43,310 bases of DNA, from contig JBPCPX010000157.1 in the NCBI GenBank assembly GCA_050998695.1, positions 1 through 43,310 on the forward strand. Reading direction: 5' to 3'. Origin of the DNA: Actinomycetota bacterium. Its GTDB lineage: Bacteria; Actinomycetota; UBA4738; HRBIN12. The position numbers and the translations under genes were made by a program. Positions 6,301 to 43,237 of this stretch are shown one piece after another. Position 1 is the first letter of the stretch. Each line of letters starts with the position of its first letter. The notes below the pieces were generated by a model. That model saw only the letters and a list, made by a program, of their open reading frames with translations. It made no database searches and was not told the origin of the DNA.

Positions 6301-7516
6301 GGGACTTGAACAGCTCGGCGAACCCCCGGTAGAGCAGCGGTCGGTCGTAGAAGTCGGCCCGCAGGGTGACGACCACGCGCAGGCGACTCCGTGGGTCGGT
6401 GGCGGCGGCCTCGAGGCTCCCGAGGAAGTGGGTCCGCGCTGCCTCGTCCTCCACGAGCGTGAACACCTCTTCGAACTGATCGATCACGAGGACGAGTTCG
6501 CTCCCGTCGGACGGGAGGAGCCGAAGGACGGCGCGGTGCAGTCCGTGCTCATCGCGCTCGAGCTGCTCCATGAGGCTCGCCGGTGGATCCGGCGCGGCGC
6601 GAAGGAGCGCCGCCTCGAGCCCGTCCAACGGGTGGCCGCCCGGGAACATGTCCGCGATGTGCCAGCCCTCCGAGCCGGCGATCGCGCCGCGCCGGATCGC
6701 GGGGATCAGCCCGGCTCGCACGACCGAGGACTTCCCGCTCCCGCTCGGGCCTACGACGGCGAGGAACCGGGTGTGGCCCAGCCGTTTGATGAGCTCCTCG
6801 ACGAGCTCTTCCCGGCCGAAGAAGTCCTGCGCATCGCCCTCCTCGAACGCGCGGAGGCCTTTGTAGGGATTCGCGGTCATGGCACCGGGAACCGCTGGGG
6901 TAAGCCGGGCGGCGGACGAGCCGAGCGCCCGGCGGAACGCCATGTCCTCCGCCGCGTCGTCAGCCTCCGCCCGCAGCCTGATCACCTGCACGGGATCGGC
7001 GAGGCCCTTGAGACTGACCGACCCTCGATCCACGTAAGCGACGCCGTCGACCTTCCTCGCGAGGTGCGTGACGGCCGGGCTGGCGAGGATCTCAGCGGGA
7101 GCGGCGATGCCGCAGAGCCGGGCCGCGAGGTTGAGCGCGCCGCCCCGGTAGCCGCCCTGGACGGCCACGGCCTCGCCGGCGTCAAGGCCGATCCCAACGG
7201 CGAGCGGGAGTGTCGGGTTCGCCACGGTCTCGTCTACGAACCTCCGCTGCAGCTCGACCGCCGCTCGGATCGCTTGCCGAGCCGAGTCGAACACCGCAAG
7301 GGCCTCGTCGCCGCGCAGCTCGACGACGGTGCCGCCGCGGGCCTCGACGCCTTCGCGCGCAACGGTTGCGAACTTGCCTGCGAGCTCCGCGGCCGCCTCG
7401 TCCCCGCGCTCCTGAGTGAAGACCGTGTATCCGCGAACGTCCGCGATCAGGAACGTCCGGATGTGAGCGCCATCGGTGCCGACGCTACCCCCGGCCGGCA
7501 GGTCCTCCTCGACCAT
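3311..7516 (-). CDS. Class III nucleotide cyclase - nSTAND1 NTPase - TM helix - WD40 repeat protein
   Basis: FLIADVRGYT, ELRGDE, ALNLAARL (cyclase); NPYKGLRAF..FFGRE, GPSGSGKSS, VIDQFEEVF, LRADF, GALPL, ELAHEA (nSTAND1); hydrophobic LRALVAVLGIAALVAIGLTVFA; many GH..WD/FSPDG repeats. Start placed at MVEED, 6 nt after a CATAAT -10. Confidence 0.93.
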   Translation of the reverse strand: MVEEDLPAGGSVGTDGAHIRTFLIADVRGYTVFTQERGDEAAAELAGKFATVAREGVEARGGTVVELRGDEALAVFDSARQAIRAAVELQRRFVDETVANPTLPLAVGIGLDAGEAVAVQGGYRGGALNLAARLCGIAAPAEILASPAVTHLARKVDGVAYVDRGSVSLKGLADPVQVIRLRAEADDAAEDMAFRRALGSSAARLTPAVPGAMTANPYKGLRAFEEGDAQDFFGREELVEELIKRLGHTRFLAVVGPSGSGKSSVVRAGLIPAIRRGAIAGSEGWHIADMFPGGHPLDGLEAALLRAAPDPPASLMEQLERDEHGLHRAVLRLLPSDGSELVLVIDQFEEVFTLVEDEAARTHFLGSLEAAATDPRSRLRVVVTLRADFYDRPLLYRGFAELFKSRVEAVIPLSAEELERAISGPAKRVDVSLEPGLVAAMLADVAEEPGALPLMEYALTELFERRDGRVLFLEAYREIGGVSGALGRRAEELYAEHDDDGQEAARQLFLRLVALGEGTEDTRRRVPRSEVASLDVDQQAMATVLDTFGASRQLSFDRDARTGAPMIELAHEAMLTAWPRLHRWIDDAREDLRSERRVAAAARDWIEADRDPSFLLGGSRLEQAEAWQEGSGIAATPEEREYLDASRAERDRRTADEEARRAHEEELERRSFRRLRALVAVLGIAALVAIGLTVFATSERGRAEQERRNATSRELAAASVANLDVDPQRSILLALEAIDLTRNADGSVLPEAEEALHRAVVASRVALTVPDVGGTVDWSAGGVFVTEGLENTGTIDLRDASTGERVRTWHGHEIDVNDVRFSEDGSLLATAGDDGRLRIWDPGSGEPISTVRGEGGVVGQSFDADGALVAASWPDEGVVRIADPTSGTLVRTVDGLDRGPWDTALSPDGRRVLVGMIGWDEARIFDVGTGDLVYVLPKHRYSVNTVSWSPDGRWIATGAGDSSIRVWNAATGELEERLVGHTGIVNTVDWAPDSRRLVSGGSDGTARVWEFEEHRTGQGIEVEGRAMFTLAAQETQSALFAVFSPDGQRVLTGDVEISAIQIWDLSVHGDEEVVNLPTDYLAPVDVAFLPDGRVVASHEDGAASIWEVDGTGATSLGPGGGPEEPVWRIAVDRDGTRVATVRNFGGTVSAWDPDSGDRVFETVVVPHDAISSIDWSPDGQHLAVGSFDGSLTILDSRGKRAQVVYEPEPHTVEWLAFSPDGRMVATGTLNQKNPDTSRVSIWDWERGEIVDTLDVVGASALAFDPTGSTIVAGLFDGSVEIRDVATGERLRRFGAHAGRVQDIAFSSDGKRIATAGEDATVAIFDARTGRRELVLRGHGLLVTGVDFSPDGKRLVSTAPDGVARVWTLNLDELIDIARSELTRGLTDDECRQYLRLQDGCA

Positions 7517-7522
7517 GGGCGG

Positions 7523-7528
7523 ATTATG
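7523..7528 (-). promoter_or_regulatory. -10 element (CATAAT) of a probable leaderless transcript
   Basis: CATAAT lies 6 nt upstream of ATG 7516 and no SD is visible. Confidence 0.55.
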
Positions 7529-7721
7529 CCCTGGGGGCGGCAGCGGTTCATAGGGGACTCGAGGCAACGCCGTTTGCCGGTGCCAAGAGGGGGGATCCAT
7601 CGGTCACCACCGGAGGGAGGGTGACATGCAGGCGAGCCGGAGCAGGGCGGCGGCCAGCAAGAGGAACAGCCGAAGAAGATGTACTCACGCCACTCCGAGG
7701 AGGTCCCGGTACCGTGTCGCG

Positions 7722-8629
7722 ATGAGTGAGACGTCGGCGGGCCGCAGGGCGCCCTCGCGCGCGGTCACGATCTCCCGGCCCGACAAGGAGCTGTGGCCGG
7801 ACATCCCGGTGACCAAGCAGGCATACGCGGAGTACCTGCGATCGGTCTCGCCGAACATGCTCCCCTGGTTGCGCGATCGGCCGCTCACGATGGTTCGAGC
7901 TCCCGACGGCGTGACCGGGGAGCGGTACTTCCAGAAGGCCGCTCCCACGTACGCGCCCGCGTGGGTCATGACGACCCGCATCCCGGCGCCGAGCGCCAAA
8001 CGAGATGTCGACTACGTGGTGTGCCAGGACCTTCCCACGCTCACGTGGCTCGGGAACCAGGCCGTGTTGGAGTTCCACTCCGCGCCGGTGCGGCGAGATC
8101 GCCTCGATCGTCCCGACCTCATGGTGATGGACATCGATCCTCCGGAGGACCAGTTCGAGATGGCGGTGGAGGTCGCGTTCCTGGTCCTGGAGGTTCTCCA
8201 CGACCTGGGCCTGCCGAGCGGCATCAAGACGACCGGAGGGAAGGGTCTGCATATCGTTGCGCCGATCGAACGGCGGGTGGACCAGTCGGCGCTCCGTGGC
8301 GCGTCGCGAGCCTTACCGCGATCGTCGTCGGGCGCAGGCCCGACCTCGTAACCGATGCGTTCCGGAAGGTTCGCCGTGAAGGACGGGTGATGCTGGATCC
8401 CTCCCGGAACGGCACGGGCGCGACGATCGTGGCGCCGTATTCACCTCGAGCCCGAGACGACGCCACCGTGTCGTTCCCCGTCACCGCCGACGAGCTCCGG
8501 TCGATCTCGCCGGAAGACTTCACGCTCCGAACGGTGCCTGCGTCCCTCGCTCGACCCGGGCCGAAGCGGTGGAGCGCCCTCGTCGGCGAGCGCGGCCGGC
8601 TGCCGAGCCGACTCCTCCGTTCTGAGTAG
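7722..8629 (+). CDS. ligD: LigD-type primase-polymerase domain protein (NHEJ), frameshifted near 8302
   Basis: ISRPDKELWP, RAPDGV..YFQK, WLGNQAVLEFH, DIDPP, KTTGGKGLH in one frame. RKVRREGRVMLD..NGTGATIVAPYSPRAR..VSFPV continues in another frame after an apparent 1-nt deletion. Confidence 0.85.
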
Positions 8630-8635
8630 ACAGCC

Positions 8636-9766
8636 TCAACCGGTGGACCAGCGGAGGAGAGCGCCGACACCGTCGTGGAGCGCGGGAGCACCCTCGAGCA
8701 CGCGGATCCCGGCACCCGTGCCAAGCGCCGCGCGGACCAGCACGTCGCGCGCGGGCTCCTCCTCGGGCGAGTCCACGCCGAGGTCCTTCAGCTCCTGCTC
8801 GGAGGTCGCCAGCAGCGCCGGATCCGGACCGAACCAGAGCTGAGCCTCCTCGTCGCCCTCGTCCGCGACCAGCAGGACCGCGACCTGCGCACGCGCGAGG
8901 GCTCGGGCCGTCCCCGCCGCTCCTTCGACCGCCTTGTCCTTTTGGCCCCGCTCCTCCTCGAACCGCGCGAGCAGTCCCTCGCCCGTCTCGCGCACGTGCT
9001 GCTGGACCAGCGCCCACACATCCTCCGGGACGGGATCGTCCTCCTCGAGCTTCCTCGGGATCTCCTTCTCGATCACGTGGACGAGCGCGTCGACCTCCTT
9101 CGGTAGCGACTCCCGCAGGAGCCCGACAGCGCGGACGTCGCCAACCACCGCGACGAACACCGGCTGTACCTGGAGGACGAGCCGTTCCACCGCCGCGGCC
9201 ACCTGCTCGGCGTTCTGTTCCCAGCTGTCCTCCGCGCGCTGCTGGTAGCGCCGCTGCGACCAGCCACCGGCCTGGACCTTGCGGATCTCGTTGTGGTCGC
9301 CCTCGATCTCCGCGTGGAGCTCGGGCGAGCCGCGGCGGACGCCGAAGAGGTCCGCGCCCCTCCTGTCGATCTGTACCACCACGTACGGAGGCTCGGACTG
9401 ACGCCATCGGATGATCGGAAGCAGTCGAGGAAGCGGACCCCAGGTCGCTTCGTCGTTCGGGCTTTCGGCTGGACCGTGTTCGGTGTGGACGATCTGCTCG
9501 ACGCCCCCGATCACGGCGAGGCTGTTCCCCTCGAGGTGAGCCTCGGGGACGAGCCCCTCGATCTCATCGAGGAGAGCAACCGGGACGTCCTGCGTCTCGA
9601 GCTCCGAGCGCTTCGTCTTCCAGCGCGCCTGCGACCGCTGCGACGCGTTCTCCACGTCTGGTTCGGTGTTGAGGTAGAGCGAGAGGAACGGGCCCGACGA
9701 TCGCGCGAGCTCTGCCAAGTCGGACGCTTCGACGGCGCCGTGCGGAAGCTTCTCGGAGGTCTCCAT
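8636..9766 (-). CDS. baeRF2-family (bacterial archaeo-eukaryotic release factor-like) protein
   Basis: SLYLNT, DRRGAD, IRKVQAGGWSQRRYQQRAE loop, C-terminal ARDVLVRAALGTGA..GVGALLRW typical of eRF1-like domain 3. Confidence 0.85.
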   Translation of the reverse strand: METSEKLPHGAVEASDLAELARSSGPFLSLYLNTEPDVENASQRSQARWKTKRSELETQDVPVALLDEIEGLVPEAHLEGNSLAVIGGVEQIVHTEHGPAESPNDEATWGPLPRLLPIIRWRQSEPPYVVVQIDRRGADLFGVRRGSPELHAEIEGDHNEIRKVQAGGWSQRRYQQRAEDSWEQNAEQVAAAVERLVLQVQPVFVAVVGDVRAVGLLRESLPKEVDALVHVIEKEIPRKLEEDDPVPEDVWALVQQHVRETGEGLLARFEEERGQKDKAVEGAAGTARALARAQVAVLLVADEGDEEAQLWFGPDPALLATSEQELKDLGVDSPEEEPARDVLVRAALGTGAGIRVLEGAPALHDGVGALLRWSTG

Positions 9767-9878
9767 ATCGGACTCCTTCCCGTAGCGAGCTCAGCGTAAC
9801 CGCTTGAGCTGCAGCGTCGTTGCCGTTCTTCGTGAGCCGAACCTAGACTCGGGCCACGGCGATAGCAGGGGATCGCGC

Positions 9879-10804
9879 ATGGATCAGGGACTCGAACACG
9901 ACGCGCTGATCTACGGTTCCGACGAGGAGTTGATGACCGCCCTCGTGCCGTGGTTGCGCGAAGGGCTCGAGAACGAGGACGGAACGGTCGTTGCGACGAC
10001 GTCCCCGCACATCACCCAGTTGCGCGATGCGCTCGGGACCTACGAGCGTTCGATCTCCTTCCTCTCCGCCGACGAGATGTACGTCCATCCCGTGCAGACG
10101 ATCGCGGCGTGGCAGCGCGTGCTCGCCGAGGCCGTCGACACCGGTATCACCTTCACCCGGATCGTCGGTGAGGTCCGGTTCGGCGCGACGGAGGATCTGC
10201 AGACGTCGTGGACGCGCTACGAGTCGGCCCTCAACGCGATCTTCGAGAGCTCACCCGCCTGGATCGTGTGTCCGTACGACGTGCGTGCCCTCCCTCCCGC
10301 GGTGATCGACCAGGCCTGGCGAACGCATCCGACGGTGTGGGACTCGACGCGCCGCGCGAGCGACCGCTACGAGATCCCCGCCCGGCTGCTCCGCGAGATC
10401 GTCGAGCCGGGCCGCGCGGTGACGGGACCGCCGTCGCTCGAGCTCGAGATCGAGGAGAGCCTGGGCGACTTGCGCCAGGCCGTGCGGGCTCTCGGGATGG
10501 AGGCCGCGCTGCCTCACGCGAGGGTGGAGGAGCTCGTTCTCGCCGTGAGCGAGCTCGCCGGCAACACGGTTCGCCACGCCGGCGGGGCGGCGGGAAGGTG
10601 GCGGTGTGGGTCACCCCGGATGGTGTCGTCTGCGAGGTGACGGATCAGGGCGGAGGCCTGGACGACCCGCTCGCCGGTCTGGTGCCGCCCAAGCAGTACG
10701 CGTCCGCGGGCATGGGCTTATGGATCGCTCGGCAGCTCTCCGATTCGTTCGCGATCGGTGCGAACGGCGAAGGGACGACCGTGAGGATCGCCGTCGACCG
10801 CTGA
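9879..10804 (+). CDS. MEDS sensor + HATPase_c anti-sigma-factor (RsbA/PrsR-like) protein, frameshifted near 10585
   Basis: HDALIY, RIVGE, W.RYES..N, CPYD, THP (MEDS); LAVSELAGNTVRHA then, in a shifted frame, GGGKV..VCEVTDQGGG..GMGLWIARQLSD. The shift lies at a G-run. Confidence 0.85.
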
Positions 10805-10807
10805 GTC

Positions 10808-11257
10808 CTACGCCTGGCCGGGCGGGTGGTCGGACATGTTCGAGCGGCCCGCGAAGAACGCGCCTTCCTCGATCGCGAGCGTTCGGCAGGTCACGTCTCC
10901 CTGCACGCGAGCCTCCCTCCCGAGCTTGATGCCTTGCTCGGCGACGACATCTCCCTGGACCGTGCCGTGAACGGTCACGCTCTGGGCACGGACGTCCCCC
11001 TCGACCCGACTCTGAGAGGGGAGCACGACCTCACCCGGCGCCGTGAGGTTCCCCTTGACCCGCCCTGCGAGGCTGATGCTGCGGGCGCTGATGTCGGCTC
11101 GAACGTCGCTTCCCGCGGCGACCGAGACGTCGCCGTCGACCGCGATCTCACCGGTGAGATGACCGTGGATGCGAAGCGAACCGCTCGAGTGGAGCGTGCC
11201 CTCGATACGTGCGCCCTGCCCCACGACCGATAGATCTTCGCCTCGTTGATCGGCCAC
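10808..11257 (-). CDS. Bactofilin (polymer-forming cytoskeletal protein)
   Basis: SVVGQGARIEGTL..LRIHG..GEI, V.GDV repeats, LAIEEGAFFAG. Confidence 0.9.
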   Translation of the reverse strand: MADQRGEDLSVVGQGARIEGTLHSSGSLRIHGHLTGEIAVDGDVSVAAGSDVRADISARSISLAGRVKGNLTAPGEVVLPSQSRVEGDVRAQSVTVHGTVQGDVVAEQGIKLGREARVQGDVTCRTLAIEEGAFFAGRSNMSDHPPGQA

Positions 11258-19029: not shown

Positions 19030-19329
19030 ATGCAGCTCCAGATCACGCCGACGAACGAGGGGTTCCGCCTCGAGGGCGAGCTCGACATGGCGACCGCGGA
19101 CGATCTCAGTCAGCTGCTCAAGGTCGCGGTCCTCGAGTGCCGCCCCCTCGTGCTCGACTTCTCGGGAGTCTCGTTCATGGACAGCAGCGGTCTGCGTGCA
19201 CTCCTCGAGGCCGCGGGCCAGACCGAAGAGGGCGGCTCGGTGATCGTACTCAACCCGTCGTCGCAGGTACGCCGCGTGCTGGACATCAGCATCCCCGGCG
19301 GTACGCCGGGGCTCGAGGTCCGCGGATGA
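19030..19329 (+). CDS. STAS-domain anti-sigma-factor antagonist
   Basis: LEGELDMATA, LVLDFSGVSFMDSSGLRALL. Confidence 0.92.
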   Translation: MQLQITPTNEGFRLEGELDMATADDLSQLLKVAVLECRPLVLDFSGVSFMDSSGLRALLEAAGQTEEGGSVIVLNPSSQVRRVLDISIPGGTPGLEVRG

Positions 19330-23084: not shown

Positions 23085-24395
23085 CTACCGCGGCAGTCCG
23101 AAAGAGATCGTCGTGCCCGCCTCGCTGCTCTCGGCACGGATGTCACCACCGTGTGCCTCGACGAGTGACTTCGCGATCGCGAGCCCGAGCCCGGCGCCGG
23201 GTGAGTCGGGAGCGCGCGAGAAGCGATCGAACACGTGCTGCAACTGCCCCTGCGCGATCCCCGACCCGGTGTCGGCGATCGAGAACTCGATGCCGTTGTC
23301 CGTCGCGGCAGCGGTTACGGTCACCTCGCCTCCGCGGGGCGTGTGACGGAGCGCGTTCGAAAGGAGATTGTTGAGCACCTCGTGGATACGCAGCCGATCT
23401 ACGTCGATGTCGGGAAGGGTGTCGGCGCGTCCCTCGAGTCGCACGCCCTTCTCGCTCGCCTGCGCCGAGAACGACCCGACGGCCGCGTCGATCAGGAGTT
23501 GCGGCGCGATCTGCTCGCGATGCAGCGTGAGCGCGCCGGCCTCCGCGGTCGACAACGTCTGCAGATCGTCCAGGAGGCGGGACATCACGGTCGCCTCCTC
23601 GAGGACCCGCTGGAGCTGGACCTCGTCCATCGGATACAGCCCGTCGAGGATGGCTTCGAGGTTCGCCCGGATCACCGACAACGGCGTCCGCAGCTCGTGC
23701 GCGACGTCGGCGAGGAGCTGTCGCCGCCGAGCCTCGTTCGTGCCGAGCCGTTCGGTCATCTCGTTGAAGGCTCGTCCAAGTCGCCGGGCTTCCCCCGATC
23801 CGCGCTCCTTGACGCGCGTCTCGTAGTCGCCGGCGGCGACGCGATCGGCGGCCTCCATCACGTCGTGCCCTCGGGTGAAGACTCGCCCCGGTTCGCGCGT
23901 GAGCGTCGCGAGAAGCTGGAACTCGGTCGGTGTGAGCTCGACCGGTCGTCCGCCCGCCGTGACCCGCATCCGTTGCGGATCGATCTCCACGTCGGCGACG
24001 CGGATCGGCTGCTCTCGCAGCATCTCGGCCGTCGAGCTCCTCCGCAGGACAGCGCGGACCCGTGCCACCAGCTCCTTGGGACTGAACGGCTTCACCACGT
24101 AGTCGTCGGCACCGAGCTCGAGCCCGACGATCCGGTCGGTCTCCTCCCCGCGGGCCGTGAGCATCACGATCGGGACCCGCGAGGAGCCCCGGAGCTCCCT
24201 CGCGACGTCGAGGCCGTCGACGCCGGGGAGCCCGAGGTCGAGCACGACGATGTCGGGCTTCGACCCTCGAGCGCTCGCCAGGGCGGCCTCGCCGTCGGAG
24301 GCCACGATCACGTCGAACCCAGCGTCGATCAGGTAGTCGCGGACGACCCGCGCGATCTTCATCTCGTCCTCGACGACGAGCACCTGCTTCATCAT
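23085..24395 (-). CDS. In-frame fusion of an OmpR-type response regulator (truncated wHTH) and a BaeS-like HAMP-HisKA-HATPase kinase lacking TM/sensor region
   Basis: VLVVEDE..DLGLP..KPF; LTPTEF.LL..PGRVFTRG then abruptly HDVMEAADRVAAGDY (HAMP), HELRTPL, NLLSNALRHT, DTGSGI, GLGLAI. Confidence 0.8.
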   Translation of the reverse strand: MMKQVLVVEDEMKIARVVRDYLIDAGFDVIVASDGEAALASARGSKPDIVVLDLGLPGVDGLDVARELRGSSRVPIVMLTARGEETDRIVGLELGADDYVVKPFSPKELVARVRAVLRRSSTAEMLREQPIRVADVEIDPQRMRVTAGGRPVELTPTEFQLLATLTREPGRVFTRGHDVMEAADRVAAGDYETRVKERGSGEARRLGRAFNEMTERLGTNEARRRQLLADVAHELRTPLSVIRANLEAILDGLYPMDEVQLQRVLEEATVMSRLLDDLQTLSTAEAGALTLHREQIAPQLLIDAAVGSFSAQASEKGVRLEGRADTLPDIDVDRLRIHEVLNNLLSNALRHTPRGGEVTVTAAATDNGIEFSIADTGSGIAQGQLQHVFDRFSRAPDSPGAGLGLAIAKSLVEAHGGDIRAESSEAGTTISFGLPR

Positions 24396-37069: not shown

Positions 37070-37368
37070 CCCGCGATCGCTTCCCGCTCGGGATCCTCGA
37101 CCGGTCCGGTCTGGACCCGCTTGACGGTGGCGCCGAGACGGCGAGCCAGGTTGCGACACGCACGCTCGAACTCCCACGGGGTCCAGTCGCGTCGGCGGCT
37201 CTGCAGGTCCTCCCCGCCGAAGCCCGACAGGTAGGTGACCTCCGAGGACAGGTAGCGGTCGACCGCTGCCTTGGTGGCCGGGTCGTTCGTCTCGACGCTC
37301 ACCTGGCCGGGGCCTTCCCACAGCACGCTGGCGATGGTGGCGCCGTCCTTCTCGAATTCGTAGCGCAT
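37066..37368 (-). CDS. Hypothetical protein (100 aa), first cistron of the ilv-leu operon
   Basis: Strong SD GGAGGAGG, clean ORF, ATGA overlap with ilvB. Confidence 0.8.
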
Positions 37369-37411
37369 CGCTCCTCCTCCTCCTCTTGCGTGATTACTCG
37401 GGCCGGGGCAG

Positions 37412-37436
37412 AAAAAAACCCCCGCGTAGCGGGGGT
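37412..37436 (-). terminator. Attenuator terminator of the ilv-leu leader
   Basis: ACCCCCGC-tac-GCGGGGG followed by a 7-nt U tract on the minus strand. Confidence 0.88.
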
Positions 37437-37474
37437 AGCGGCGCGGGGCGCGGGCCTCTGAGGCCCGGCCGCGC

Positions 37475-37525
37475 CTAGCGGATAAGTACGAGGACGGTGC
37501 TCGGGAAGCTCCTCGCGCTCTTCAT
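37475..37525 (-). CDS. ilv operon leader (attenuator) peptide MKSARSFPSTVLVLIR
   Basis: 16 codons ending V-L-V-L-I-R (GTC CTC GTA CTT ATC), upstream of GC hairpins and the U-tract terminator. Confidence 0.85.
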   Translation of the reverse strand: MKSARSFPSTVLVLIR

Positions 37526-37534
37526 GGTCGGGTC

Positions 37535-37563
37535 AGTCTCGGCGCTCGGCCTGGGAGTGTCAA
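37535..37563 (-). promoter_or_regulatory. Sigma70-type promoter of the ilv-leu operon
   Basis: TTGACA-N17-GAGACT on the minus strand. Confidence 0.65.
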
Positions 37564-37616
37564 CCCCCGTACGGGCGATGGCCCATGCGGTAAGGGGACC
37601 AGATACGATCACCCCA

Positions 37617-37847
37617 ATGGAGTCGTTCCCCGACGAGGGGTCGCCCGTCCCCCGCGTCCATCCCCTCGAATCCCGTTCGTGTGGTTCGCACTCCAGCTCC
37701 TCGAGTTCGGCATCCTGACAGCGCTGTTTCGGCTCTCCCTGCCCCGCGACTGGCCCTGGGCGTCTACTGGGGCGTCTGACCGGTGCTCCTGACCGGTCTC
37801 ACGATCGTCAACTACAGGATCCGGCGCCCGGTTCATCCCACGGTAGG
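37617..37847 (+). pseudogene. Degraded small two-TM membrane protein gene
   Basis: TACGAT -10 lies 7 nt before the ATG. Fragments PFVWFALQLLEFGILTALF / VYWGV* / VLLTGLTIVNYRIRR / RFIPR* sit in different frames. Confidence 0.45.
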
Positions 37848-38218
37848 CACCCGAGCCCGTCATCGGGCGGCACCCGACGTACGCGGACCCGTGGAGATCG
37901 GTTTCCTCGATGATCCGCTGGACGATCTCGGCGGGAGATCCTGCTTCTCCTCCTCGCGCCTCTCGGCCTCCTTGGCTTGTTCCACCTCCACGCGAGCGGC
38001 CTGCCAGGCGGACCAGTGACCCAGCCGTTCGGCTTGCGCATGAACATCGGATCGCCCTGGATGCTCGCCCAAAGGGGACTTGACCACGCTCGCGGGCAGA
38101 CGCATACCCTCCGCCAGGAACTCCCAAGTATCGGAGCGGCGATGTCGACACTTCTCCACACATCTCAACTTCCCGTGAACTCCTCCTTCGACGTTTCGCC
38201 GGAGGAGCCCCGGTGGGC

Positions 38219-39613
38219 TCACGCCAGATCCTGGTCAGCGGCGAACTGGTCCCCCACCACGAACCCATCCGCGGTGATCTCGAACTCTCGGATCTGCGGG
38301 TCGTGGGCGCTCGCCCTCGTCTTCATCACGGTGATCCCGCGCTTCACTCGAGACTCCCCTCGGAGGAACTGCAGCAGCACGACATTGTCGGAGATATGAG
38401 AGATCCCGACTTCGGACAGGCGCGTGACACCGAAGAGCTCACCGACCTCCTGCGTCATCATCACGCTGACCTTTTGACGGGAGCACCGCTGCAGGAGTGA
38501 GTACACGTACTCGCGGAAGCGGGTCTCATCGGTGGAGGCAGCCTTCAGATCGCCGAGACTGTCGATCACGATGCGGCGCGCTCCCGTCGCTTCTACGGTC
38601 TCCAGGAGCTCATGCACCCATTCATCCAAGTACAGATCGACAGGCGTGCGATACATGAGCTCGACGCCCTCCTCATCCAGCGACCAGCCGTATCCGCTGA
38701 CGATCCGTTCGAGTTGGGCCGAGTTCTCTTGAAGCGTCGCGATCACACCGGGTTCGCCTTGCCGAGCCCCACCGAAGATGAAGTGCAGCCCCATGAGGGT
38801 CTTGCCCGATCCCGACGGACCGGCCACGAGGGTCGAGGCGCCGGGCCAGTAGCCTCGCCCGAGCATCTCGTCGAGGATCGTGATGCCGGATGAGATCTTG
38901 ATGTCTTCCAGCTCATACGGTGCTTGATCGACCGGGTCGGCCAGGCGAGGGAAGAATTCCACCCCGTGGGCGGAGAGTCGGTAGGTGTGCTTGCCGGAGA
39001 GGAAGTCGCTCCCACGGAGCTTGAGCACCTGGAAGACGTGCATCTCGCGCTCCCCTTTCCGCTCGACCGAGAGCGAAAGGATCGAGTCGGCGACCGCGAA
39101 TTCGGCGGACCCGGCGAGCTCGTCGCGGCCGTACTCGCCGACCCAGAACGACGTCACGGGGAACGCGGACAGCCGACCGGCGAGCTCGTGGAGGAACCGT
39201 CGGAAGTCCTCGTCCCTCCGCGCGTACGGATGCAGCGCCTTGAAGCTGTCGATGATGATCATCCCGGGGCGTCGCTCCTTGAGGAACCCACTGATCTTCT
39301 GGAGCACCCCCGGAAGGCCTTCGTCGTTCACGGTCCCGCCCAGATCCTCGTAGAACACCGCCGTGCCGATCGCCCTTCGATCGAAGAAGCTCAACGTCTG
39401 GCCGTAGCGCAGGATCTTCTCGAGCGGCTCGGAGACCGTGGAGAGGTAGATCGCCGGCCGTTCCGGCGTGGCGTTCTGGAACGCGTACTGCTGCGCGAGG
39501 ATCGTCTTCCCGGCCCCGGGGAGTCCGATGATGAGGTTGATCCCGTCGCCGGGCAGGCCTCCGCCCAACATGTCGTTCAATCGTTCCGAGCCGCTGGACA
39601 CCCGGTCACTCAT
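38219..39613 (-). CDS. Double-domain KaiC-like (RecA/DnaB superfamily) ATPase
   Basis: Two RecA-like halves: GLPGAGKT/IIIDSF/KLRGS and GPSGSGKT/IVIDSL/ISHISD/KTRAS; FFPRL linker; 464 aa. Confidence 0.92.
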   Translation of the reverse strand: MSDRVSSGSERLNDMLGGGLPGDGINLIIGLPGAGKTILAQQYAFQNATPERPAIYLSTVSEPLEKILRYGQTLSFFDRRAIGTAVFYEDLGGTVNDEGLPGVLQKISGFLKERRPGMIIIDSFKALHPYARRDEDFRRFLHELAGRLSAFPVTSFWVGEYGRDELAGSAEFAVADSILSLSVERKGEREMHVFQVLKLRGSDFLSGKHTYRLSAHGVEFFPRLADPVDQAPYELEDIKISSGITILDEMLGRGYWPGASTLVAGPSGSGKTLMGLHFIFGGARQGEPGVIATLQENSAQLERIVSGYGWSLDEEGVELMYRTPVDLYLDEWVHELLETVEATGARRIVIDSLGDLKAASTDETRFREYVYSLLQRCSRQKVSVMMTQEVGELFGVTRLSEVGISHISDNVVLLQFLRGESRVKRGITVMKTRASAHDPQIREFEITADGFVVGDQFAADQDLA

Positions 39614-40263
39614 GGCGAGAGGACCTCGCTTCGGAGGAACGCGCTCTGTCCGAGCAGGTCCTTGACGGTCGACACCAGTTGCAGGGGATCGAGGGGTTTC
39701 TGGAGGAACGCGTCGGCCCCATATTCCAGGGCCTCGTCGCGGGACTCCAGCGGCGATATCGCGAGGACGAGCGCTCCCCGTTCCCGGAAGGTTCGGCAGA
39801 GACCCGGCCCCGCACCGTCCGAGATCAGGAGATCGACCACGGCGAGGTGAGGCGACCGCTTCTCGAAGATGGCCTCCGCTTCGCGCGCCTCGAGCGCCAT
39901 GAACGTCTCGTAGCCCTCGGTCCGCAGGAAGTACTCGGCGAGCTCAGCCGCGTGCGGGTCGCGCTCCGCCAGCATGATGACCAGCCGGGTTTCGGATCCG
40001 CTGATCGCGACGTTCCGATCGGGATCGTTGCGCAGACGGTCCGTCAGGAGCCGGTGTGCATCCGCTGGCTGCATGCCCCCCTCGATGCTCCTGAGGACGA
40101 AGCGCAGCTGCTCGACGTGGTCCCGCGTGTACAGGCGGTGGCCACCAGGGCTGCGATCGGGCATGACGACGCCGTATCGCTCCTCCCATGTGCGTAAGGT
40201 GGCGGTGGGCACACCACCGAGCATCCTTGCGACCGCCCCGATGCTGTAGATGGCAGCTGTCAC
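39610..40263 (-). CDS. MerR (CarH/MlrA-type) HTH fused to a receiver domain
   Basis: YSIGAVARML..ATLRTWEERYG..P.RSPGGHRLYT; REC with AERD, VVD, ISP, GADAFLQKP. Confidence 0.88.
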   Translation of the reverse strand: MTAAIYSIGAVARMLGGVPTATLRTWEERYGVVMPDRSPGGHRLYTRDHVEQLRFVLRSIEGGMQPADAHRLLTDRLRNDPDRNVAISGSETRLVIMLAERDPHAAELAEYFLRTEGYETFMALEAREAEAIFEKRSPHLAVVDLLISDGAGPGLCRTFRERGALVLAISPLESRDEALEYGADAFLQKPLDPLQLVSTVKDLLGQSAFLRSEVLSP

Positions 40264-40282
40264 AGGGCGTGAGCTTAGTCGA

Positions 40283-40307
40283 ATGCGAAGCAGTTTGCCA
40301 GTCGCAT
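40283..40307. promoter_or_regulatory. Inverted repeat over the predicted -35 of the MerR-REC promoter
   Basis: ATGCGA-N13-TCGCAT; TAAGCT -10 at 40272-40277 on the minus strand. Confidence 0.4.
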
Positions 40308-40388
40308 CTACTCAGAACACCTTCAACTCTTAAGCAGCCGCCCCTGCTTGAGCACGGGATCTTCCTCATCGTTACACCACCTTCGAGC

Positions 40389-40418
40389 TTGACCTCCGCA
40401 CCGATGAGGAGGTAGCCT
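40389..40418 (+). promoter_or_regulatory. Sigma70-like promoter of the phosphatase gene, with a dyad across the spacer
   Basis: TTGACC-N18-TAGCCT containing ACCTCC-N10-GGAGGT. Confidence 0.45.
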
Positions 40419-40448
40419 CTTCAACCCTGAGGCGGGGTCAGGAAGCTG

Positions 40449-42263
40449 ATGCAGGAAAGCCACGATCTCCAGCACGACCCAGCTCGGATCAAGTCTGAGC
40501 GACTCGCTGAAGACAACCACGGATACGTCCCTGGAAGGAGCAACGGGGGATCGAGCAACAACGGTACCTCCGCTGAGGCAAGGGACCGGGCTCTGTTCGA
40601 GAGCGCGGGTGACGCGATCCTCATAGTGGACCGAGAAGGCCTCTGCATCGATGCGAACCCGAGAGCGACCGAGCTCGTCGGGTACGAACGACAGGAGCTG
40701 CTCTCGATGCCCATCCTCGATCTGGTTGCGGCCGCACCGGGATGGGCGGATGAGGAGTTCCGACGCTTCATCGATCGGGAGCGCTGGACGGCAGAGATGG
40801 AGCTCCGGCACAAGGATGGATCCCTCGTCCAGGTCGACATGTCCGCAACCAGGGTGGACATCGGATCGGGTCCTCCCATCTATCTGGCGGCGATACGTGA
40901 CCTCAGCGATCGGAAGCGGCTGATCGAACAGGGCGCCGAGCTCGTCCGCGCGGAGGCGGAGGCCCAGGCGCAAGCGGAAGCCGCGAGGCAAAGGGTCCGT
41001 TTCGTCTCCGACGTCAGTGAACTCCTCGCCGTCTCGCTCGACTACCCGGCGACCCTCGTGCGCCTGGCCGAGCTGGTGGTACGGGAGATCGCTGATCTCT
41101 GCGTCATCGATCTGGTCCAAGAGTCGGGGACCCTCAAACGGGTCGCGGTGGTGCACGCCAGCTCGGCGAAGCAAACCTTGGCAGAGCAGCTCGGTGACTA
41201 CGCGCCGCGACCGGGGAACTCGGACCCGGTCGCCCGAGCCTTCGCGACCGGCGAGGCGCAGGTATTCTCGCATCAGTCAGCTGGATCCTTGCGGGCGATC
41301 ACCCAGGACGAGGGACACCTGCGGATCGCTCGAGAGATCGGCGTCCAGTCGTTCCTGTCCGTTCCGCTGATCGCTCGAGGTCGCACGCTCGGGGTCATCA
41401 GCCTGGTCTCCACGAACCCAGACATCCGGTACGGCGAGTCGGACGTGCGACTGGCCGAGGAGATCGCCCGGCGTGCGGCCGTCAGGATCGACAACGCGCG
41501 GCTCTACGAGGAACGGGATCACACGGCCAAGGTGTTGCAGAGGAGCCTGCTGCCTCCCAGCCTTCCCCCCATCCCGCATGTCGAGCTCGCAGCACGTTAC
41601 CTGCCGGTGGGCGAGGGGAACGAGGTCGGCGGAGACTTCTACGACGTCTTCGACTGCGGCGACGGGAACTGGGCAGCGGCGGTGGGCGACGTCTGCGGGA
41701 AGGGACCGGAGGCGGCCGCGGTCATGGGACTCGCTCGACACACGTTGCGTGCGGTGGCCCGTTTCGAACGTAAGCCGAGCGCGTTGCTCCGCGAGCTGAA
41801 CCGAGCGCTCCTCGAGCAGAGCGTCGAGGAGCGGTTCTGCACCGTCTGTCATCTTCGCCTACGCCCGAGCCGAGATCATCTGCGGATCACGCTGTGCACT
41901 GCGGGTCACCCTCTCCCCCTGCTCTTGCGGCGAGACAAGAGCCTGTCCTCGGTGGGGGAACCGGGGCAGCTCCTCGGGGTGTTCCCCGAGGTCTCGCTCG
42001 TGGACTGCGTCGTCGACCTGGATCCCGGCGATGCCTTGCTGATCTATACGGATGGCGCCACCGAACAGCGCCGCGAGGCTGTCGCCGGAGAGGGGAGACT
42101 GCGTAAGGCATTCGCTGCCTCGCTCGGCCGGGACGCCGAAGCGACGGCTGCGGGGGTGGAGGAGGCTCTCCGTGCCGCTCGCGGATCCTCACCGCAGCGC
42201 GACGACGTGGCCCTGTTGGTCATCCGGGCCGCGGAGCGGGATCCGCTTCGGTCGGGGTCGTAA
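40449..42263 (+). CDS. PAS-GAF-SpoIIE (RsbU-like PP2C) phosphatase
   Basis: LFESAGDAI..DAN..GY PAS; GAF with VPLIARGRTLG..IDNARLY; LQRSLLP, VGGDFYD, GDVCGKG, AGHP.P, YTDG, DDVA. Confidence 0.93.
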   Translation: MQESHDLQHDPARIKSERLAEDNHGYVPGRSNGGSSNNGTSAEARDRALFESAGDAILIVDREGLCIDANPRATELVGYERQELLSMPILDLVAAAPGWADEEFRRFIDRERWTAEMELRHKDGSLVQVDMSATRVDIGSGPPIYLAAIRDLSDRKRLIEQGAELVRAEAEAQAQAEAARQRVRFVSDVSELLAVSLDYPATLVRLAELVVREIADLCVIDLVQESGTLKRVAVVHASSAKQTLAEQLGDYAPRPGNSDPVARAFATGEAQVFSHQSAGSLRAITQDEGHLRIAREIGVQSFLSVPLIARGRTLGVISLVSTNPDIRYGESDVRLAEEIARRAAVRIDNARLYEERDHTAKVLQRSLLPPSLPPIPHVELAARYLPVGEGNEVGGDFYDVFDCGDGNWAAAVGDVCGKGPEAAAVMGLARHTLRAVARFERKPSALLRELNRALLEQSVEERFCTVCHLRLRPSRDHLRITLCTAGHPLPLLLRRDKSLSSVGEPGQLLGVFPEVSLVDCVVDLDPGDALLIYTDGATEQRREAVAGEGRLRKAFAASLGRDAEATAAGVEEALRAARGSSPQRDDVALLVIRAAERDPLRSGS

Positions 42264-42313
42264 CAACCTCCGGTTCGACCCTCGAACAGCACCGGTGCTA
42301 GCGTTCGGCCGCC

Positions 42314-43237
42314 ATGGACGCGGACCCATCCACCGATCCTTCGCTCGACGCCGCTATCCGCGCGATCCCGTCATGGGAGAGCGAGGAGCTCGAGGTCCTC
42401 CCGATCGCCGAGGGCCGCACGAACCGCAACTTCCGCGTGACGGCAGGCGATGAGGCCTTCTTCCTCCGGCTCTCCGAGAGGTCCACGGAGCTCCTCGGGA
42501 TCGATCGGAACGCCGAGCAGGACTCAGCCCGAGCAGCCGCCGAGGCGGGCGTCGGCCCCGAGGTCTTCGTCTATCTCCCCGAGCTCGGCTGCCTCGTCAC
42601 GCGATGGATCGAGGCCGAGCCGCTCTCCGAGGGTGACCTCGAGCGCGAAGAGGTCCTCGCTCCCGTGGTCGATGCGATCAAGGCGATCCATGCCGGACCA
42701 GCACTCTCGTGGTCCTTCGACCCGTTCCGGATCGTGGAGGATTACCGGCGCATCTCCGAGGATCGGGGCGTCGTGGTTCCCGACGCGTTCGACCCGGCCC
42801 ACGAGAAGGCGTCCCGGATCGAGGCCGCGTTCGCGAGCGACCCGATGCCGCTCCGGCCGTGCCACAACGATCTCCTCGAGGCGAACTTCCTCCTGCGCGA
42901 CGGCAACGTCTGGGTCGTGGACCACGAGTATGCGGGCATGGGAGACTCGTTCTTCGACCTCGGGAACCTCTCGATCAATAACGCGCTGTCGGATGAGGCG
43001 CAGGAGCGGCTGCTCGCCCTGTACTTCGGGGAGCCGACCGACGCGCACCGCGCGCGCCTGCAGCTGATGCGGATCATGTCCGACTTCCGCGAGGCGATGT
43101 GGGGCGTCGTGCAGCAGGGCTTGTCCACGCTCGACATCGACTACGTGGAGTACGCGGCGACGCACTTCGACCGGCTCTCCACGACGATGGCGGACCCGCG
43201 CTTCGAGGACTGGCTCGAGACGGCGCGGGGTTCCTGA
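42314..43237 (+). CDS. Choline/ethanolamine kinase-family phosphotransferase
   Basis: GRTNRNF, LGIDR..E, CHNDLLEANFL (Brenner motif), VDHEYAGMGD.FFDL. Confidence 0.88.
   Translation: MDADPSTDPSLDAAIRAIPSWESEELEVLPIAEGRTNRNFRVTAGDEAFFLRLSERSTELLGIDRNAEQDSARAAAEAGVGPEVFVYLPELGCLVTRWIEAEPLSEGDLEREEVLAPVVDAIKAIHAGPALSWSFDPFRIVEDYRRISEDRGVVVPDAFDPAHEKASRIEAAFASDPMPLRPCHNDLLEANFLLRDGNVWVVDHEYAGMGDSFFDLGNLSINNALSDEAQERLLALYFGEPTDAHRARLQLMRIMSDFREAMWGVVQQGLSTLDIDYVEYAATHFDRLSTTMADPRFEDWLETARGS

What the first reader, a model, noticed from the sequence alone, without database searches (positions are those of the whole stretch)
38219..42263. KaiA/KaiB-less KaiC signalling module: MerR-REC regulator + KaiC-like ATPase, divergent from a PAS-GAF-PP2C phosphatase
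Seen: a MerR-HTH-REC gene overlaps (ATGA, 39610-39613) a double-domain KaiC-like ATPase. The two share a 185-bp intergenic region with a divergent RsbU-type phosphatase. No kaiA, kaiB or adjacent histidine kinase is present. Known: KaiC autophosphorylates on Ser/Thr, PP2C enzymes remove Ser/Thr phosphates, and non-clock KaiC ATPases have been proposed as signalling hubs. Inference: a compact switch or timer with PAS/GAF input, PP2C resetting of KaiC (or of a STAS protein), and output through a DNA-binding MerR-REC. I do not know of a characterised system with this trio.
Basis: partly seen in the sequence, partly recalled or inferred. Interest (0 to 1): 0.78.

Follow-up and report, generated by a model that had tools for sequence, protein, structure and literature searches.

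The report
Mobile KaiC-like, MerR-receiver, PP2C signalling cassette
Three neighbouring genes (a clock-protein-like ATPase, a DNA-binding regulator with a crippled receiver domain, and a sensor phosphatase) are gained or lost together as one small unit, and appear to be an unstudied signalling switch tied to the bacterial partner-switching stress machinery.

Summary
Window 38219-42263 encodes a double-domain KaiC-like ATPase. A MerR-HTH+REC gene overlaps it by ATGA. A PAS-GAF-PP2C gene lies divergent across 185 bp. No KaiA or KaiB was found in the 84.6%-complete genome.

- **Obligate pair:** full-length MerR-REC occurs only in the 8 of 401 phylum genomes that carry the KaiC ortholog, always directly upstream.
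- **Receiver domain:** it lacks the second pocket Asp in 19 of 19 orthologs, and the acceptor is Glu in 4 of 19. It looks like a pseudo-receiver.
- **One unit:** same-genus genomes without it lack exactly PP2C+MerR-REC+KaiC. In another genus the unit is STAS+MerR-REC+KaiC.
- **Partner-switching link:** 24 of 25 loci carry a STAS, RsbW-like kinase or PP2C gene upstream, against 0 of 15 for REC-only KaiC relatives. Fusions such as RsbW-MerR-REC and PP2C-MerR-REC exist.

What the PP2C dephosphorylates, and any timing role, remain untested. This scan had already noted the MerR-REC/KaiC pair on other DNA (e1-1476677). The partner-switching link is what is added here. Verdict: a new variant of KaiC-like signalling modules, of moderate to high interest.

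The parts
38219..39613 (-). Double-domain KaiC-like ATPase (464 aa)
   Evidence: PF06745 207.3 bits, two stretches. It falls below the NCBIfam circadian-KaiC cut-offs: 209.9 vs 408 and 165 vs 546. Best PDB hits are KaiC chains, E 1e-55. Across 19 orthologs these are invariant: Walker A K36/T37 and K271/T272, Walker B D122 and D351, single Glu E62 and E296, and Ser405.
39610..40263 (-). MerR-HTH + pseudo-receiver (REC) regulator, 217 aa, translationally coupled to the KaiC gene (ATGA overlap 39610-39613)
   Evidence: Pfam MerR_1 and Response_reg. The HTH is closest to CarH/LitR. The pocket reads A99-E100-R101-D102 in place of the canonical DD. The acceptor is D143 here but Glu in 4 of 19 orthologs. 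S170 and K189 are invariant.
40264..40448 (.). 185-bp divergent intergenic region with conserved blocks (candidate operators and promoters)
   Evidence: The own-clade alignment shows two conserved blocks flanking a variable middle. The motif TGARGARG is enriched upstream of MerR-REC in other clades.
40405..40423 (.). 19-bp imperfect palindrome (minus strand TGAAGAGGCTACCTCCTCA), candidate operator next to the PP2C start
   Evidence: Read. It is conserved in 5 of 6 own-clade loci. L005 instead has 8-bp arms changed on both sides (TGCAGAGG...CCTCTGCA) with a wider spacer. Function is inferred.
40308..40326 (.). Second conserved block (minus strand TTGAAGGTGTTCTGAGTAG), about 45-65 bp upstream of the MerR-REC start
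   Evidence: Conserved in the own-clade alignment. Related TGAGGAAG copies lie at about -50 in L001, L002 and L005. Function is inferred.
40449..42263 (+). PAS-GAF-PP2C (SpoIIE-type) Ser/Thr phosphatase, 604 aa
   Evidence: Pfam. The closest solved relative is the Rv1364c phosphatase domain. The GGDFYD, GDVCGKG, YTDG and DDVALL motifs align.
38092..42293 (.). Approximate limits of the 3-gene insertion/deletion unit (island)
   Evidence: Same-genus genomes without the cassette (L102-L105) align up to window 42294 and resume at 38091/38021 (G511) or about 37584 (the others). GC is 0.646-0.652 here against 0.68-0.70 in the flanks.

Best explanation
This is a small mobile signalling cassette. Its obligate core is a KaiC-like hexameric ATPase and a MerR-type transcription factor whose C-terminal receiver domain has lost normal Asp-phosphorylation chemistry.

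Most likely mechanism, step by step:
1. The KaiC-like protein binds the pseudo-receiver. Its nucleotide state, or phosphorylation of the invariant Ser405, sets whether the MerR domain acts on conserved operator-like repeats in the divergent intergenic region. That would control its own operon and the divergent gene. All of this step is inferred.
2. The third slot of the cassette is always a partner-switching component. Here it is a PAS-GAF-PP2C phosphatase; in other lineages it is a STAS protein with or without an RsbW-like kinase. This component couples the core to Ser/Thr phospho-signalling.
3. In this window the PP2C is the sensory input. It removes a Ser phosphate from KaiC-Ser405, from a resident STAS protein or from MerR-REC. 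The substrate is not resolved.

Shown: the gene unit, co-occurrence, residue patterns and fusions. Inferred: binding, the DNA target and the phosphatase substrate.
For: (1) Obligate pair. Full-length matches to MerR-REC occur in 8 of 401 phylum genomes. These are the same 8 that hold the KaiC ortholog at 48% identity or more, and the two genes are adjacent in each. MerR-REC lies directly upstream of KaiC in 9 of 9, 7 of 7 and 12 of 12 loci with upstream DNA.

(2) One unit. In 4 of 4 compared same-genus genomes without the cassette, the flanks are contiguous and exactly PP2C+MerR-REC+KaiC is missing. A 62-bp direct repeat (97% identical) flanks the island in G463. In genus g7 the missing unit is STAS+MerR-REC+KaiC (L077 about 5730-8378). 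Distribution is patchy: 17 of 200 same-family genomes and 5 of 26 same-genus genomes.

(3) Partner-switching link. 24 of 25 MerR-REC/KaiC loci have STAS (17), PP2C (9) or an RsbW-like gene (6) within about 2 kb upstream. The 25th, L008, has no upstream DNA. The figure is 0 of 15 for REC-only KaiC relatives (Pfam checks). G000 has only 3 PP2C and 7 STAS matches.

(4) Fusions. HATPase_c_2-MerR-REC occurs in L051, P0015 and P0161. PAS-GAF-GAF-PP2C-MerR-REC is P0034. PAS-GAF-PP2C-HATPase_c_2-MerR-REC is P0038. MerR-GAF-PAS-PP2C is P0166.

(5) Pseudo-receiver. The second pocket Asp is absent in 19 of 19 orthologs (R in 16; Q, H and K in one each). The acceptor is Glu in 4 of 19. The REC proteins of the HK-linked KaiC group keep the canonical DDEP...D in 7 of 7.

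(6) KaiC to REC binding. Co-fold of KaiC with REC residues 88-217 gave 'weak support': score 0.37 against a best control of 0.01. That mark was reached by 58 of 80 solved complexes and 2 of 110 mismatched pairs. At scores of 0.60 or under, it was reached by only 7 of those 80 and by both mismatches. The three runs agree in 100% of contacts and the partner's pLDDT is at least 84. As precedent, P. putida KaiC-like protein binds its neighbouring response regulator in two-hybrid assays (bioRxiv 10.1101/2022.01.26.477890, section 'KaiC interaction network', read).

(7) Cis element. TGARGARG gives 13 hits in 12 of 20 upstream regions of other clades. That is 2.48 per kb against 0.215 per kb in the rest of the same loci. 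Dinucleotide shuffles average 1.03 hits, and 0 of 1000 reach 13.
Against: - No experiment bears on this family.
- The co-fold result is only 'weak support', and no contacts were given.
- Many of the 20 loci in the motif count are close kin (L073-L083), so the enrichment is overstated. The motif is purine-rich, and upstream regions have lower GC (0.587 against 0.677).
- A 12-mer PWM scan of G000 gave 120 hits, with the window's own sites not at the top, so no regulon could be read.
- No sigma-70-like promoter was found.
- KaiC-linked PP2C domains are not monophyletic: 4 changes on the tree, and starred branches force at least 2. The PP2C is therefore a recruited partner, not a co-evolving one.
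- In L071 the PP2C gene carries a 145-bp frameshifting deletion while MerR-REC and KaiC are intact.
- The STAS, RsbW and PP2C HMMs used for the 24-of-25 count were built from these same neighbours. The 0-of-15 outgroup result could therefore miss divergent members.
- The fusion proteins are singletons from metagenomes, apart from the RsbW-MerR-REC type (3 sequences). Some may be gene-calling merges.
Confidence: 0.5

Rival explanations
1. KaiC autophosphorylates on Ser405 and the PAS-GAF-PP2C is its dedicated reset phosphatase. The cassette is then a self-contained phospho-switch or hourglass read out by MerR-REC.
For: - The island carries PP2C but no STAS and no other kinase. KaiC is therefore the only island-encoded source of a phospho-Ser.
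- The Ser aligned with KaiC's first phosphosite is invariant in 19 of 19 orthologs.
- Both ATPase sites are intact.
- Pseudomonas KaiC-like proteins are phosphorylated at one or two sites (abstract).
Against: - Ser405 is invariant whether or not a PP2C is present.
- The residue aligned with the second phosphosite is His, Pro or Gln.
- The CII Glu pair is reduced to Gln-Glu in 18 of 19 orthologs.
- STAS, not PP2C, is the usual third gene.
- The linked PP2Cs are polyphyletic.
- The PP2C gene is broken in L071.
- Canonical KaiC dephosphorylates itself without a phosphatase (textbook knowledge, recalled).
- There is no evidence for any timing behaviour.
Confidence: 0.2
2. The PP2C is an ordinary RsbU-type phosphatase of the genome's sigma-factor partner-switching network and acts on a resident phospho-STAS. 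Its tie to the cassette is only transcriptional: MerR-REC/KaiC controls its divergent promoter.
For: - G000 has 7 STAS matches, several small RsbW-like kinases and a further PP2C+RsbW cluster on C115.
- The STAS that scores best against the cassette-STAS profile lies in the same contig at 19030-19329 (75.5 bits).
- The window's PP2C groups (support 99) with non-linked PP2Cs of the same genomes.
- The shared intergenic region carries conserved operator-like blocks.
Against: - Domain fusions join PP2C and the RsbW-like kinase directly to MerR-REC. That argues for a protein-level link, not only a promoter-level one.
- The margin of the 19030-19329 STAS over the other STAS genes is small: 75.5 against 71.1 and 68.4 bits.
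Confidence: 0.2
3. Chance or hitch-hiking. The PP2C merely lies beside an independent MerR-REC/KaiC pair.
For: - The PP2C is absent from most MerR-REC/KaiC loci: 16 of 25 lack it.
- It is a pseudogene in L071.
Against: - The 3-gene indel has exact limits.
- There are only 3 PP2C genes in the genome.
- PP2C genes were recruited next to the pair at least twice independently.
- PP2C-MerR-REC fusions exist.
- A parallel STAS-containing indel unit exists in another genus.
Confidence: 0.05

Closest known systems
KaiC-like / histidine kinase / single-domain response regulator modules of Pseudomonas and other non-cyanobacteria (Terrettaz et al., bioRxiv 10.1101/2022.01.26.477890; De Luca et al. 2011, PMC3164672)
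   Same: - A double-domain KaiC homolog without KaiA or KaiB, in an operon with a REC-domain protein.
- KaiC binds the REC protein in P. putida.
- De Luca et al. list a KaiC class with 'SH' at the phosphosite pair and REC or signalling neighbours.
- More distant relatives of this KaiC (35-45% identity) do have REC-only or HK-REC genes upstream and GAF-HK genes downstream.
   Different: - Here the REC is fused to a MerR DNA-binding domain and has lost the second pocket Asp.
- No histidine kinase is in the cassette.
- The third component is a partner-switching part (PP2C, STAS or RsbW-like kinase), which neither paper mentions in the passages and sections I read.
Cyanobacterial KaiABC oscillator
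   Same: Two RecA-like domains with intact Walker motifs. A Ser aligns with the first phosphosite. The sequence aligns end to end with solved KaiC chains.
   Different: - No KaiA or KaiB was found.
- It scores below both NCBIfam circadian-KaiC cut-offs.
- The second phosphosite position is His.
- Each domain has one Glu instead of the Glu pair.
- The protein ends about where KaiC's KaiA-binding tail would begin (KaiC numbering is recalled).
RsbU-RsbV-RsbW partner switching, and the fused form Rv1364c (PAS-PP2C-RsbW-STAS; PDB 3ke6)
   Same: - The PP2C is SpoIIE/RsbU-type with sensor domains, and its closest solved relative is Rv1364c.
- STAS proteins with a DS[ST]G motif and RsbW-like kinases fill the same slot in other lineages.
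- P0038 (PAS-GAF-PP2C-RsbW-like-MerR-REC) has Rv1364c's domain order with MerR-REC where STAS would be (the Rv1364c order is recalled).
   Different: No sigma factor or anti-sigma factor lies in the cassette. The output appears to be a MerR-type factor, and a KaiC-like ATPase is always present.
CarH/LitR class of MerR regulators (N-terminal MerR HTH plus a C-terminal flavodoxin-like sensory domain)
   Same: The HTH scores best against CarH (NCBIfam 9.4e-17; PDB 5c8d and 3whp). The layout is the same: HTH first, then an alpha/beta sensory domain.
   Different: The C-terminal domain is a REC fold, not a B12-binding domain. CarH scores 61 bits against a cut-off of 400.
KaiA3 and KaiA (receiver or pseudo-receiver domain proteins that regulate KaiC; Kobler et al. 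2024, PMC11372060)
   Same: A receiver-like domain protein is encoded directly upstream of a kaiC homolog and is thought to act on it.
   Different: There is no KaiA-like helical domain and no KaiB. The domain order is reversed and a DNA-binding domain is attached.

Membership tests
KaiC family (Pfam PF06745, double-domain) | Two RecA-like domains, each matching the family model above the cut-off | tested here: met
   207.3 bits against a cut-off of 26.6, two stretches. G000:C143 38249-38893 and 38945-39601 both score over the cut-off.
KaiC family (Pfam PF06745, double-domain) | Walker A and Walker B in both domains | tested here: met
   GxxGxGKT and hhhhDS are invariant in 19 of 19 orthologs: K36/T37, D122, K271/T272 and D351.
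Circadian clock KaiC (NCBIfam TIGR02655 / PRK09302 equivalogs) | Score above the curated equivalog cut-off | tested here: not met
   209.9 against 408, and 165 against 546.25.
Circadian clock KaiC (NCBIfam TIGR02655 / PRK09302 equivalogs) | Ser-Thr phosphosite pair and the catalytic Glu-Glu pair in CII | tested here: not met
   The site aligns as Ser-His. CII has Gln-Glu and CI has Ser-Glu. Site numbering is recalled.
Circadian clock KaiC (NCBIfam TIGR02655 / PRK09302 equivalogs) | KaiB (and KaiA) partners in the genome | tested here: not met
   No PF07689 or PF07688 match in G000, which is 84.55% complete.
Response regulator receiver (PF00072) | Domain model above the cut-off | tested here: met
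   44.2 bits against 30.2, residues 96-200.
Response regulator receiver (PF00072) | Acidic pocket (two Asp after beta1) plus a conserved phospho-acceptor Asp | tested here: not met
   The pocket reads E-R (R, Q, H or K at the second position in 19 of 19). The acceptor is Asp in 15 and Glu in 4 of 19.
Response regulator receiver (PF00072) | Conserved Thr/Ser (beta4) and Lys (beta5) | tested here: met
   S170 and K189 are invariant.
Response regulator receiver (PF00072) | Cognate histidine kinase | tested here: not met
   None in the cassette or in 25 related loci. HKs appear only beside the REC-only KaiC relatives.
MerR family regulators (PF13411) | N-terminal winged HTH above the cut-off | tested here: met
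   54.3 bits against 21.6, residues 6-74.
MerR family regulators (PF13411) | Palindromic operator inside a 19-20 bp spacer promoter | tested here: inconclusive
   A 19-bp palindrome is at 40405-40423 and there are conserved blocks. No -35/-10 pair was detected.
PP2C / SpoIIE phosphatases (PF07228) | Domain above the cut-off, with the metal-binding Asp motifs | tested here: met
   146.6 bits against 25. GGDFYD, GDVCGKG, YTDG and DDV align with Rv1364c.
Partner-switching system (RsbU/RsbV/RsbW type) | PP2C, STAS antagonist and RsbW-type kinase encoded together | tested here: not met
   The window's island has PP2C only. STAS and RsbW-like genes lie elsewhere in G000. Other lineages carry STAS with or without RsbW or PP2C in the cassette.
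Partner-switching system (RsbU/RsbV/RsbW type) | Phosphorylation-dependent exchange of binding partners | not testable with these tools
   This needs biochemistry.

The most novel reading that the evidence does not exclude
The KaiC-like ATPase is itself the switch protein of a new kind of partner-switching circuit and takes the place of RsbW. It holds (or activates) the MerR-pseudo-receiver factor, as an anti-sigma factor holds sigma. A STAS protein competes for it and is phosphorylated by it. The PP2C re-arms the STAS, or KaiC itself.

The pseudo-receiver would then be the first REC domain used as a partner-switching client. KaiC would have a trans substrate.

This reading fits three observations:
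- Self-contained 3-gene units made of STAS+MerR-REC+KaiC, with no other kinase.
- Units made of PP2C+MerR-REC+KaiC.
- Fusions that put MerR-REC where Rv1364c has STAS.
Probability: 0.2. Interest if true: 0.85.

Novelty: new variant of a known kind. Interest (0 to 1): 0.62.

Why it matters
KaiC homologs without KaiA or KaiB are widespread, and what they do is largely unknown. This cassette offers an unusually compact case: three genes, a direct DNA-binding output and no histidine kinase.

It also connects two signalling systems that have been studied separately. One is KaiC-type ATPases. The other is STAS/RsbW/PP2C partner switching. If KaiC binds the pseudo-receiver, or acts on STAS, that would show how a clock-type ATPase was wired into ordinary stress signalling. 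It would also give a simple system for asking what the slow ATPase/autokinase cycle of KaiC is used for outside clocks.

The family is small. A search with MerR-REC found 73 clusters at 50% identity with E of 1e-30 or better among 1.84 billion representatives. In the genomes sampled here it occurs in uncultured Actinomycetota, so the impact depends on heterologous work.

Tried and rejected
- **Regulon from a motif scan.** A 12-mer PWM over G000 gave 120 hits of 12 bits or more. Most look like coding-sequence chance matches, and the window's own sites score only 14-15. No regulon can be claimed.
- **STAS remnant beside the window's KaiC.** A six-frame search of 37251-38300 with the cassette-STAS profile, filters off, gave a best E of 1.2, which is nothing. 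The ORF 37860-38222 and two small + strand ORFs have no Pfam match. Part of that DNA is also present in genomes without the cassette, so it is flank, not cassette.
- **Promoter and terminator scan of 37900-40560.** 0 promoter-like and 0 terminator-like sites. A 'TAAGCT' 8 nt before the GTG start, suggesting a leaderless mRNA, was read by eye only.
- **APH/choline-kinase-like gene 42314-43237 as a fourth member.** Rejected: it is present in the cassette-free genomes.
- **One co-evolving PP2C partner.** Rejected by the PP2C tree.
- **Literature.** KaiC with MerR and response regulator gave 28 papers; none of the 15 listed is relevant by title or abstract. Other searches: KaiC-like+PP2C (1), KaiC+RsbU (3), KaiC+STAS (1, irrelevant), KaiC+partner-switching (1, a review), KaiC+anti-sigma factor antagonist (5, cyanobacterial gene lists), KaiC+Actinobacteria+receiver domain (0), KaiC+Streptomyces+MerR family (0). 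Supplements were not available, so KaiC neighbourhood tables in supplements of PMC3164672 and of the Pseudomonas preprint could hold related contexts.
- **MerR-REC-KaiC single-ORF forms.** P0156-P0165 are singletons. With an ATGA overlap they may be one-base errors, so I did not use them as evidence.

Full report
**1. The observation**

ORF listing and translation confirm three genes:
- A 464-aa protein at 38219-39613 (-).
- A 217-aa protein at 39610-40263 (-, GTG start). Its stop overlaps the next gene's ATG as ATGA.
- A 604-aa protein at 40449-42263 (+), across a 185-bp gap (sequence).

Pfam gives KaiC (PF06745, 207 bits, two stretches), MerR_1 plus Response_reg, and PAS-GAF-SpoIIE/PP2C. NCBIfam places the ATPase well below both circadian-KaiC cut-offs, at 209.9/408 and 165/546.

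The genome (G000) is a 2.2-Mb assembly in 178 contigs, 84.55% complete. It holds one double-domain KaiC gene and gave no KaiB or KaiA match.

**2. The core pair**

I collected related loci in three ways.
- The search for related loci gave 11 loci.
- A 401-genome sample of the phylum gave 7 other genomes with an ortholog at 48% identity or more, plus more distant relatives.
- A 201-genome sample of the family gave 17 of 200 other genomes with the ortholog, and 5 of 26 in the same genus.

A MerR-REC homolog lies directly upstream of the KaiC gene in every locus with upstream DNA: 9 of 9, 7 of 7 and 12 of 12.

I then searched the same 401 genomes with MerR-REC itself. Full-length matches appeared in exactly the 8 genomes that carry the KaiC ortholog. 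All other matches covered one domain only. The fusion protein is therefore a dedicated partner of this KaiC clade. A search of 1.84 billion cluster representatives found 73 proteins at E of 1e-30 or better, so the family is small.

**3. Residues**

In 19 aligned KaiC orthologs, several features are invariant:
- Both Walker A and both Walker B motifs.
- One Glu per domain (TVSEP; LQEN).
- The Ser that aligns with the first phosphosite of solved KaiC chains.

The neighbouring position is His in 17, Pro in 1 and Gln in 1. The S431/T432 numbering is recalled.

In MerR-REC the pocket after beta1 reads A-E-R-D-P. The second canonical Asp is R, Q, H or K in 19 of 19. The acceptor is Asp in 15 and Glu in 4. 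Ser170 and Lys189 are invariant.

By contrast, the REC proteins next to a more distant, HK-linked KaiC group keep DDEP...D...T/S...K in 7 of 7. So this is a receiver fold that probably does not take a phosphate in the usual way.

The HTH is closest to CarH/LitR.

**4. The third gene**

The PP2C is adjacent in the window's own clade and in L009, L046, L052 and L082, but not elsewhere.

Reading the upstream DNA of the other loci showed small divergent STAS genes, often followed by an RsbW-like HATPase_c_2 kinase. Pfam confirmed 7 of 7 STAS and 2 of 2 kinases tested.

I built profiles from these neighbours and tallied 25 MerR-REC/KaiC loci. 24 have at least one of STAS (17), PP2C (9) or RsbW-like kinase (6) within about 2 kb upstream. 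The exception, L008, has no upstream DNA. None of 15 loci of REC-only KaiC relatives has any. Those loci carry histidine kinases instead.

On a KaiC tree the STAS neighbour is spread over all sub-branches. The window's clade sits beside L046, which has STAS followed by PP2C. Loss of STAS in this clade is therefore the simplest reading.

The PP2C domains linked to KaiC are not one clade. That means repeated recruitment.

**5. One unit**

Four same-genus genomes without the cassette have the flanking genes contiguous: the APH-like kinase on one side and the ilvB region on the other. What is missing is exactly PP2C+MerR-REC+KaiC, window about 38092-42293. In G463 a 62-bp direct repeat flanks the unit. 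GC dips over it.

In genus g7 the comparison of L077 with cassette-free G442 and G570 shows the missing unit to be STAS+MerR-REC+KaiC.

The third gene therefore belongs to the mobile unit in both genera.

**6. Fusions**

- RsbW-like-MerR-REC: L051, P0015 and P0161.
- PAS-GAF-GAF-PP2C-MerR-REC: P0034.
- PAS-GAF-PP2C-RsbW-like-MerR-REC: P0038.
- MerR-GAF-PAS-PP2C: P0166.

These were found. All but the first type are singletons.

**7. Binding and DNA target**

The co-fold of KaiC with REC residues 88-217 gave weak support: 0.37 against a best control of 0.01. Counts and caveats are as given by the tool.

In P. putida the KaiC-like protein binds its neighbouring response regulator.

The intergenic regions share TGARGARG-type repeats:
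- A 19-bp palindrome at 40405-40423.
- A second block at 40308-40326, conserved in the own clade.
- Enrichment in other clades: 13 hits in 12 of 20 regions, against a shuffle mean of 1.03. Kinship among those loci inflates this figure.

**8. Results against my reading**

- The complex score is weak.
- The motif scan gave no regulon.
- No promoter was found.
- The PP2C gene is broken by a 145-bp deletion in L071.
- Which protein the PP2C dephosphorylates is open.
- Nothing speaks for a timer.

**9. Comparison and verdict**

The KaiC-with-REC/HK theme is known (PMC3164672, passages read; bioRxiv 10.1101/2022.01.26.477890, abstract and two sections read). KaiA3 shows another receiver-like KaiC regulator (PMC11372060, passages read).

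I found no paper that links KaiC homologs to STAS, RsbW or PP2C parts, or to a MerR-REC fusion (searches listed under Tried and rejected).

I file this as a new variant of KaiC-like signalling modules.

Noticed in passing
L066 (G463:C5), reverse-complement coordinates about 4332-4393 and 8673-8734: A 62-bp direct repeat (97% identical) flanks the 3-gene island. It contains the first codons of the APH-like kinase gene, and the cassette-free genome G511 has a single copy. No integrase or transposase gene lies inside the island, so how it moves is unexplained.
   Followed up: partly
L071 (G496:C114) about 9204-10912: The PP2C gene of this close relative lacks 145 bp, corresponding to window gene positions 765-909 in the GAF region. 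It is split into two ORFs, while MerR-REC and KaiC are intact. This could be a real pseudogene or an assembly error.
   Followed up: partly
L054-L061 (phylum sample, KaiC 35-39% identical): A different KaiC group has a canonical REC, or a HisKA-HATPase-REC gene, upstream. A conserved protein of about 250 aa with no Pfam match lies downstream (cluster c3, for example L058:4991-5770).
   Followed up: no
window 42314-43237: An APH/choline-kinase-family protein scores 271.9 bits against the guanitoxin kinase GntI model, below its cut-off of 357. It is flank rather than cassette, and its substrate is unknown.
   Followed up: partly
window 19030-19329 and 23085-24395: A stand-alone STAS protein (with FMDSSG) is the best G000 match to the cassette-STAS profile. 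A REC-HAMP-HisKA-HATPase hybrid kinase also lies on the same contig, 15-19 kb from the cassette.
   Followed up: partly
window 37322-38091: About 770 bp between ilvB and the island has no convincing gene and no Pfam match. It is partly conserved in cassette-free genomes.
   Followed up: partly
MerR-REC orthologs, C-terminal tail (window protein residues about 200-212): A conserved tail, DLLGxSAFLR, follows the receiver fold. Cys156 is invariant within the REC domain. Both are candidate contact or sensing sites.
   Followed up: no
G000:C61:15374-16865: One open frame appears to combine PP2C, HATPase_c_2 and STAS, like the fused regulator Rv1364c.
   Followed up: no
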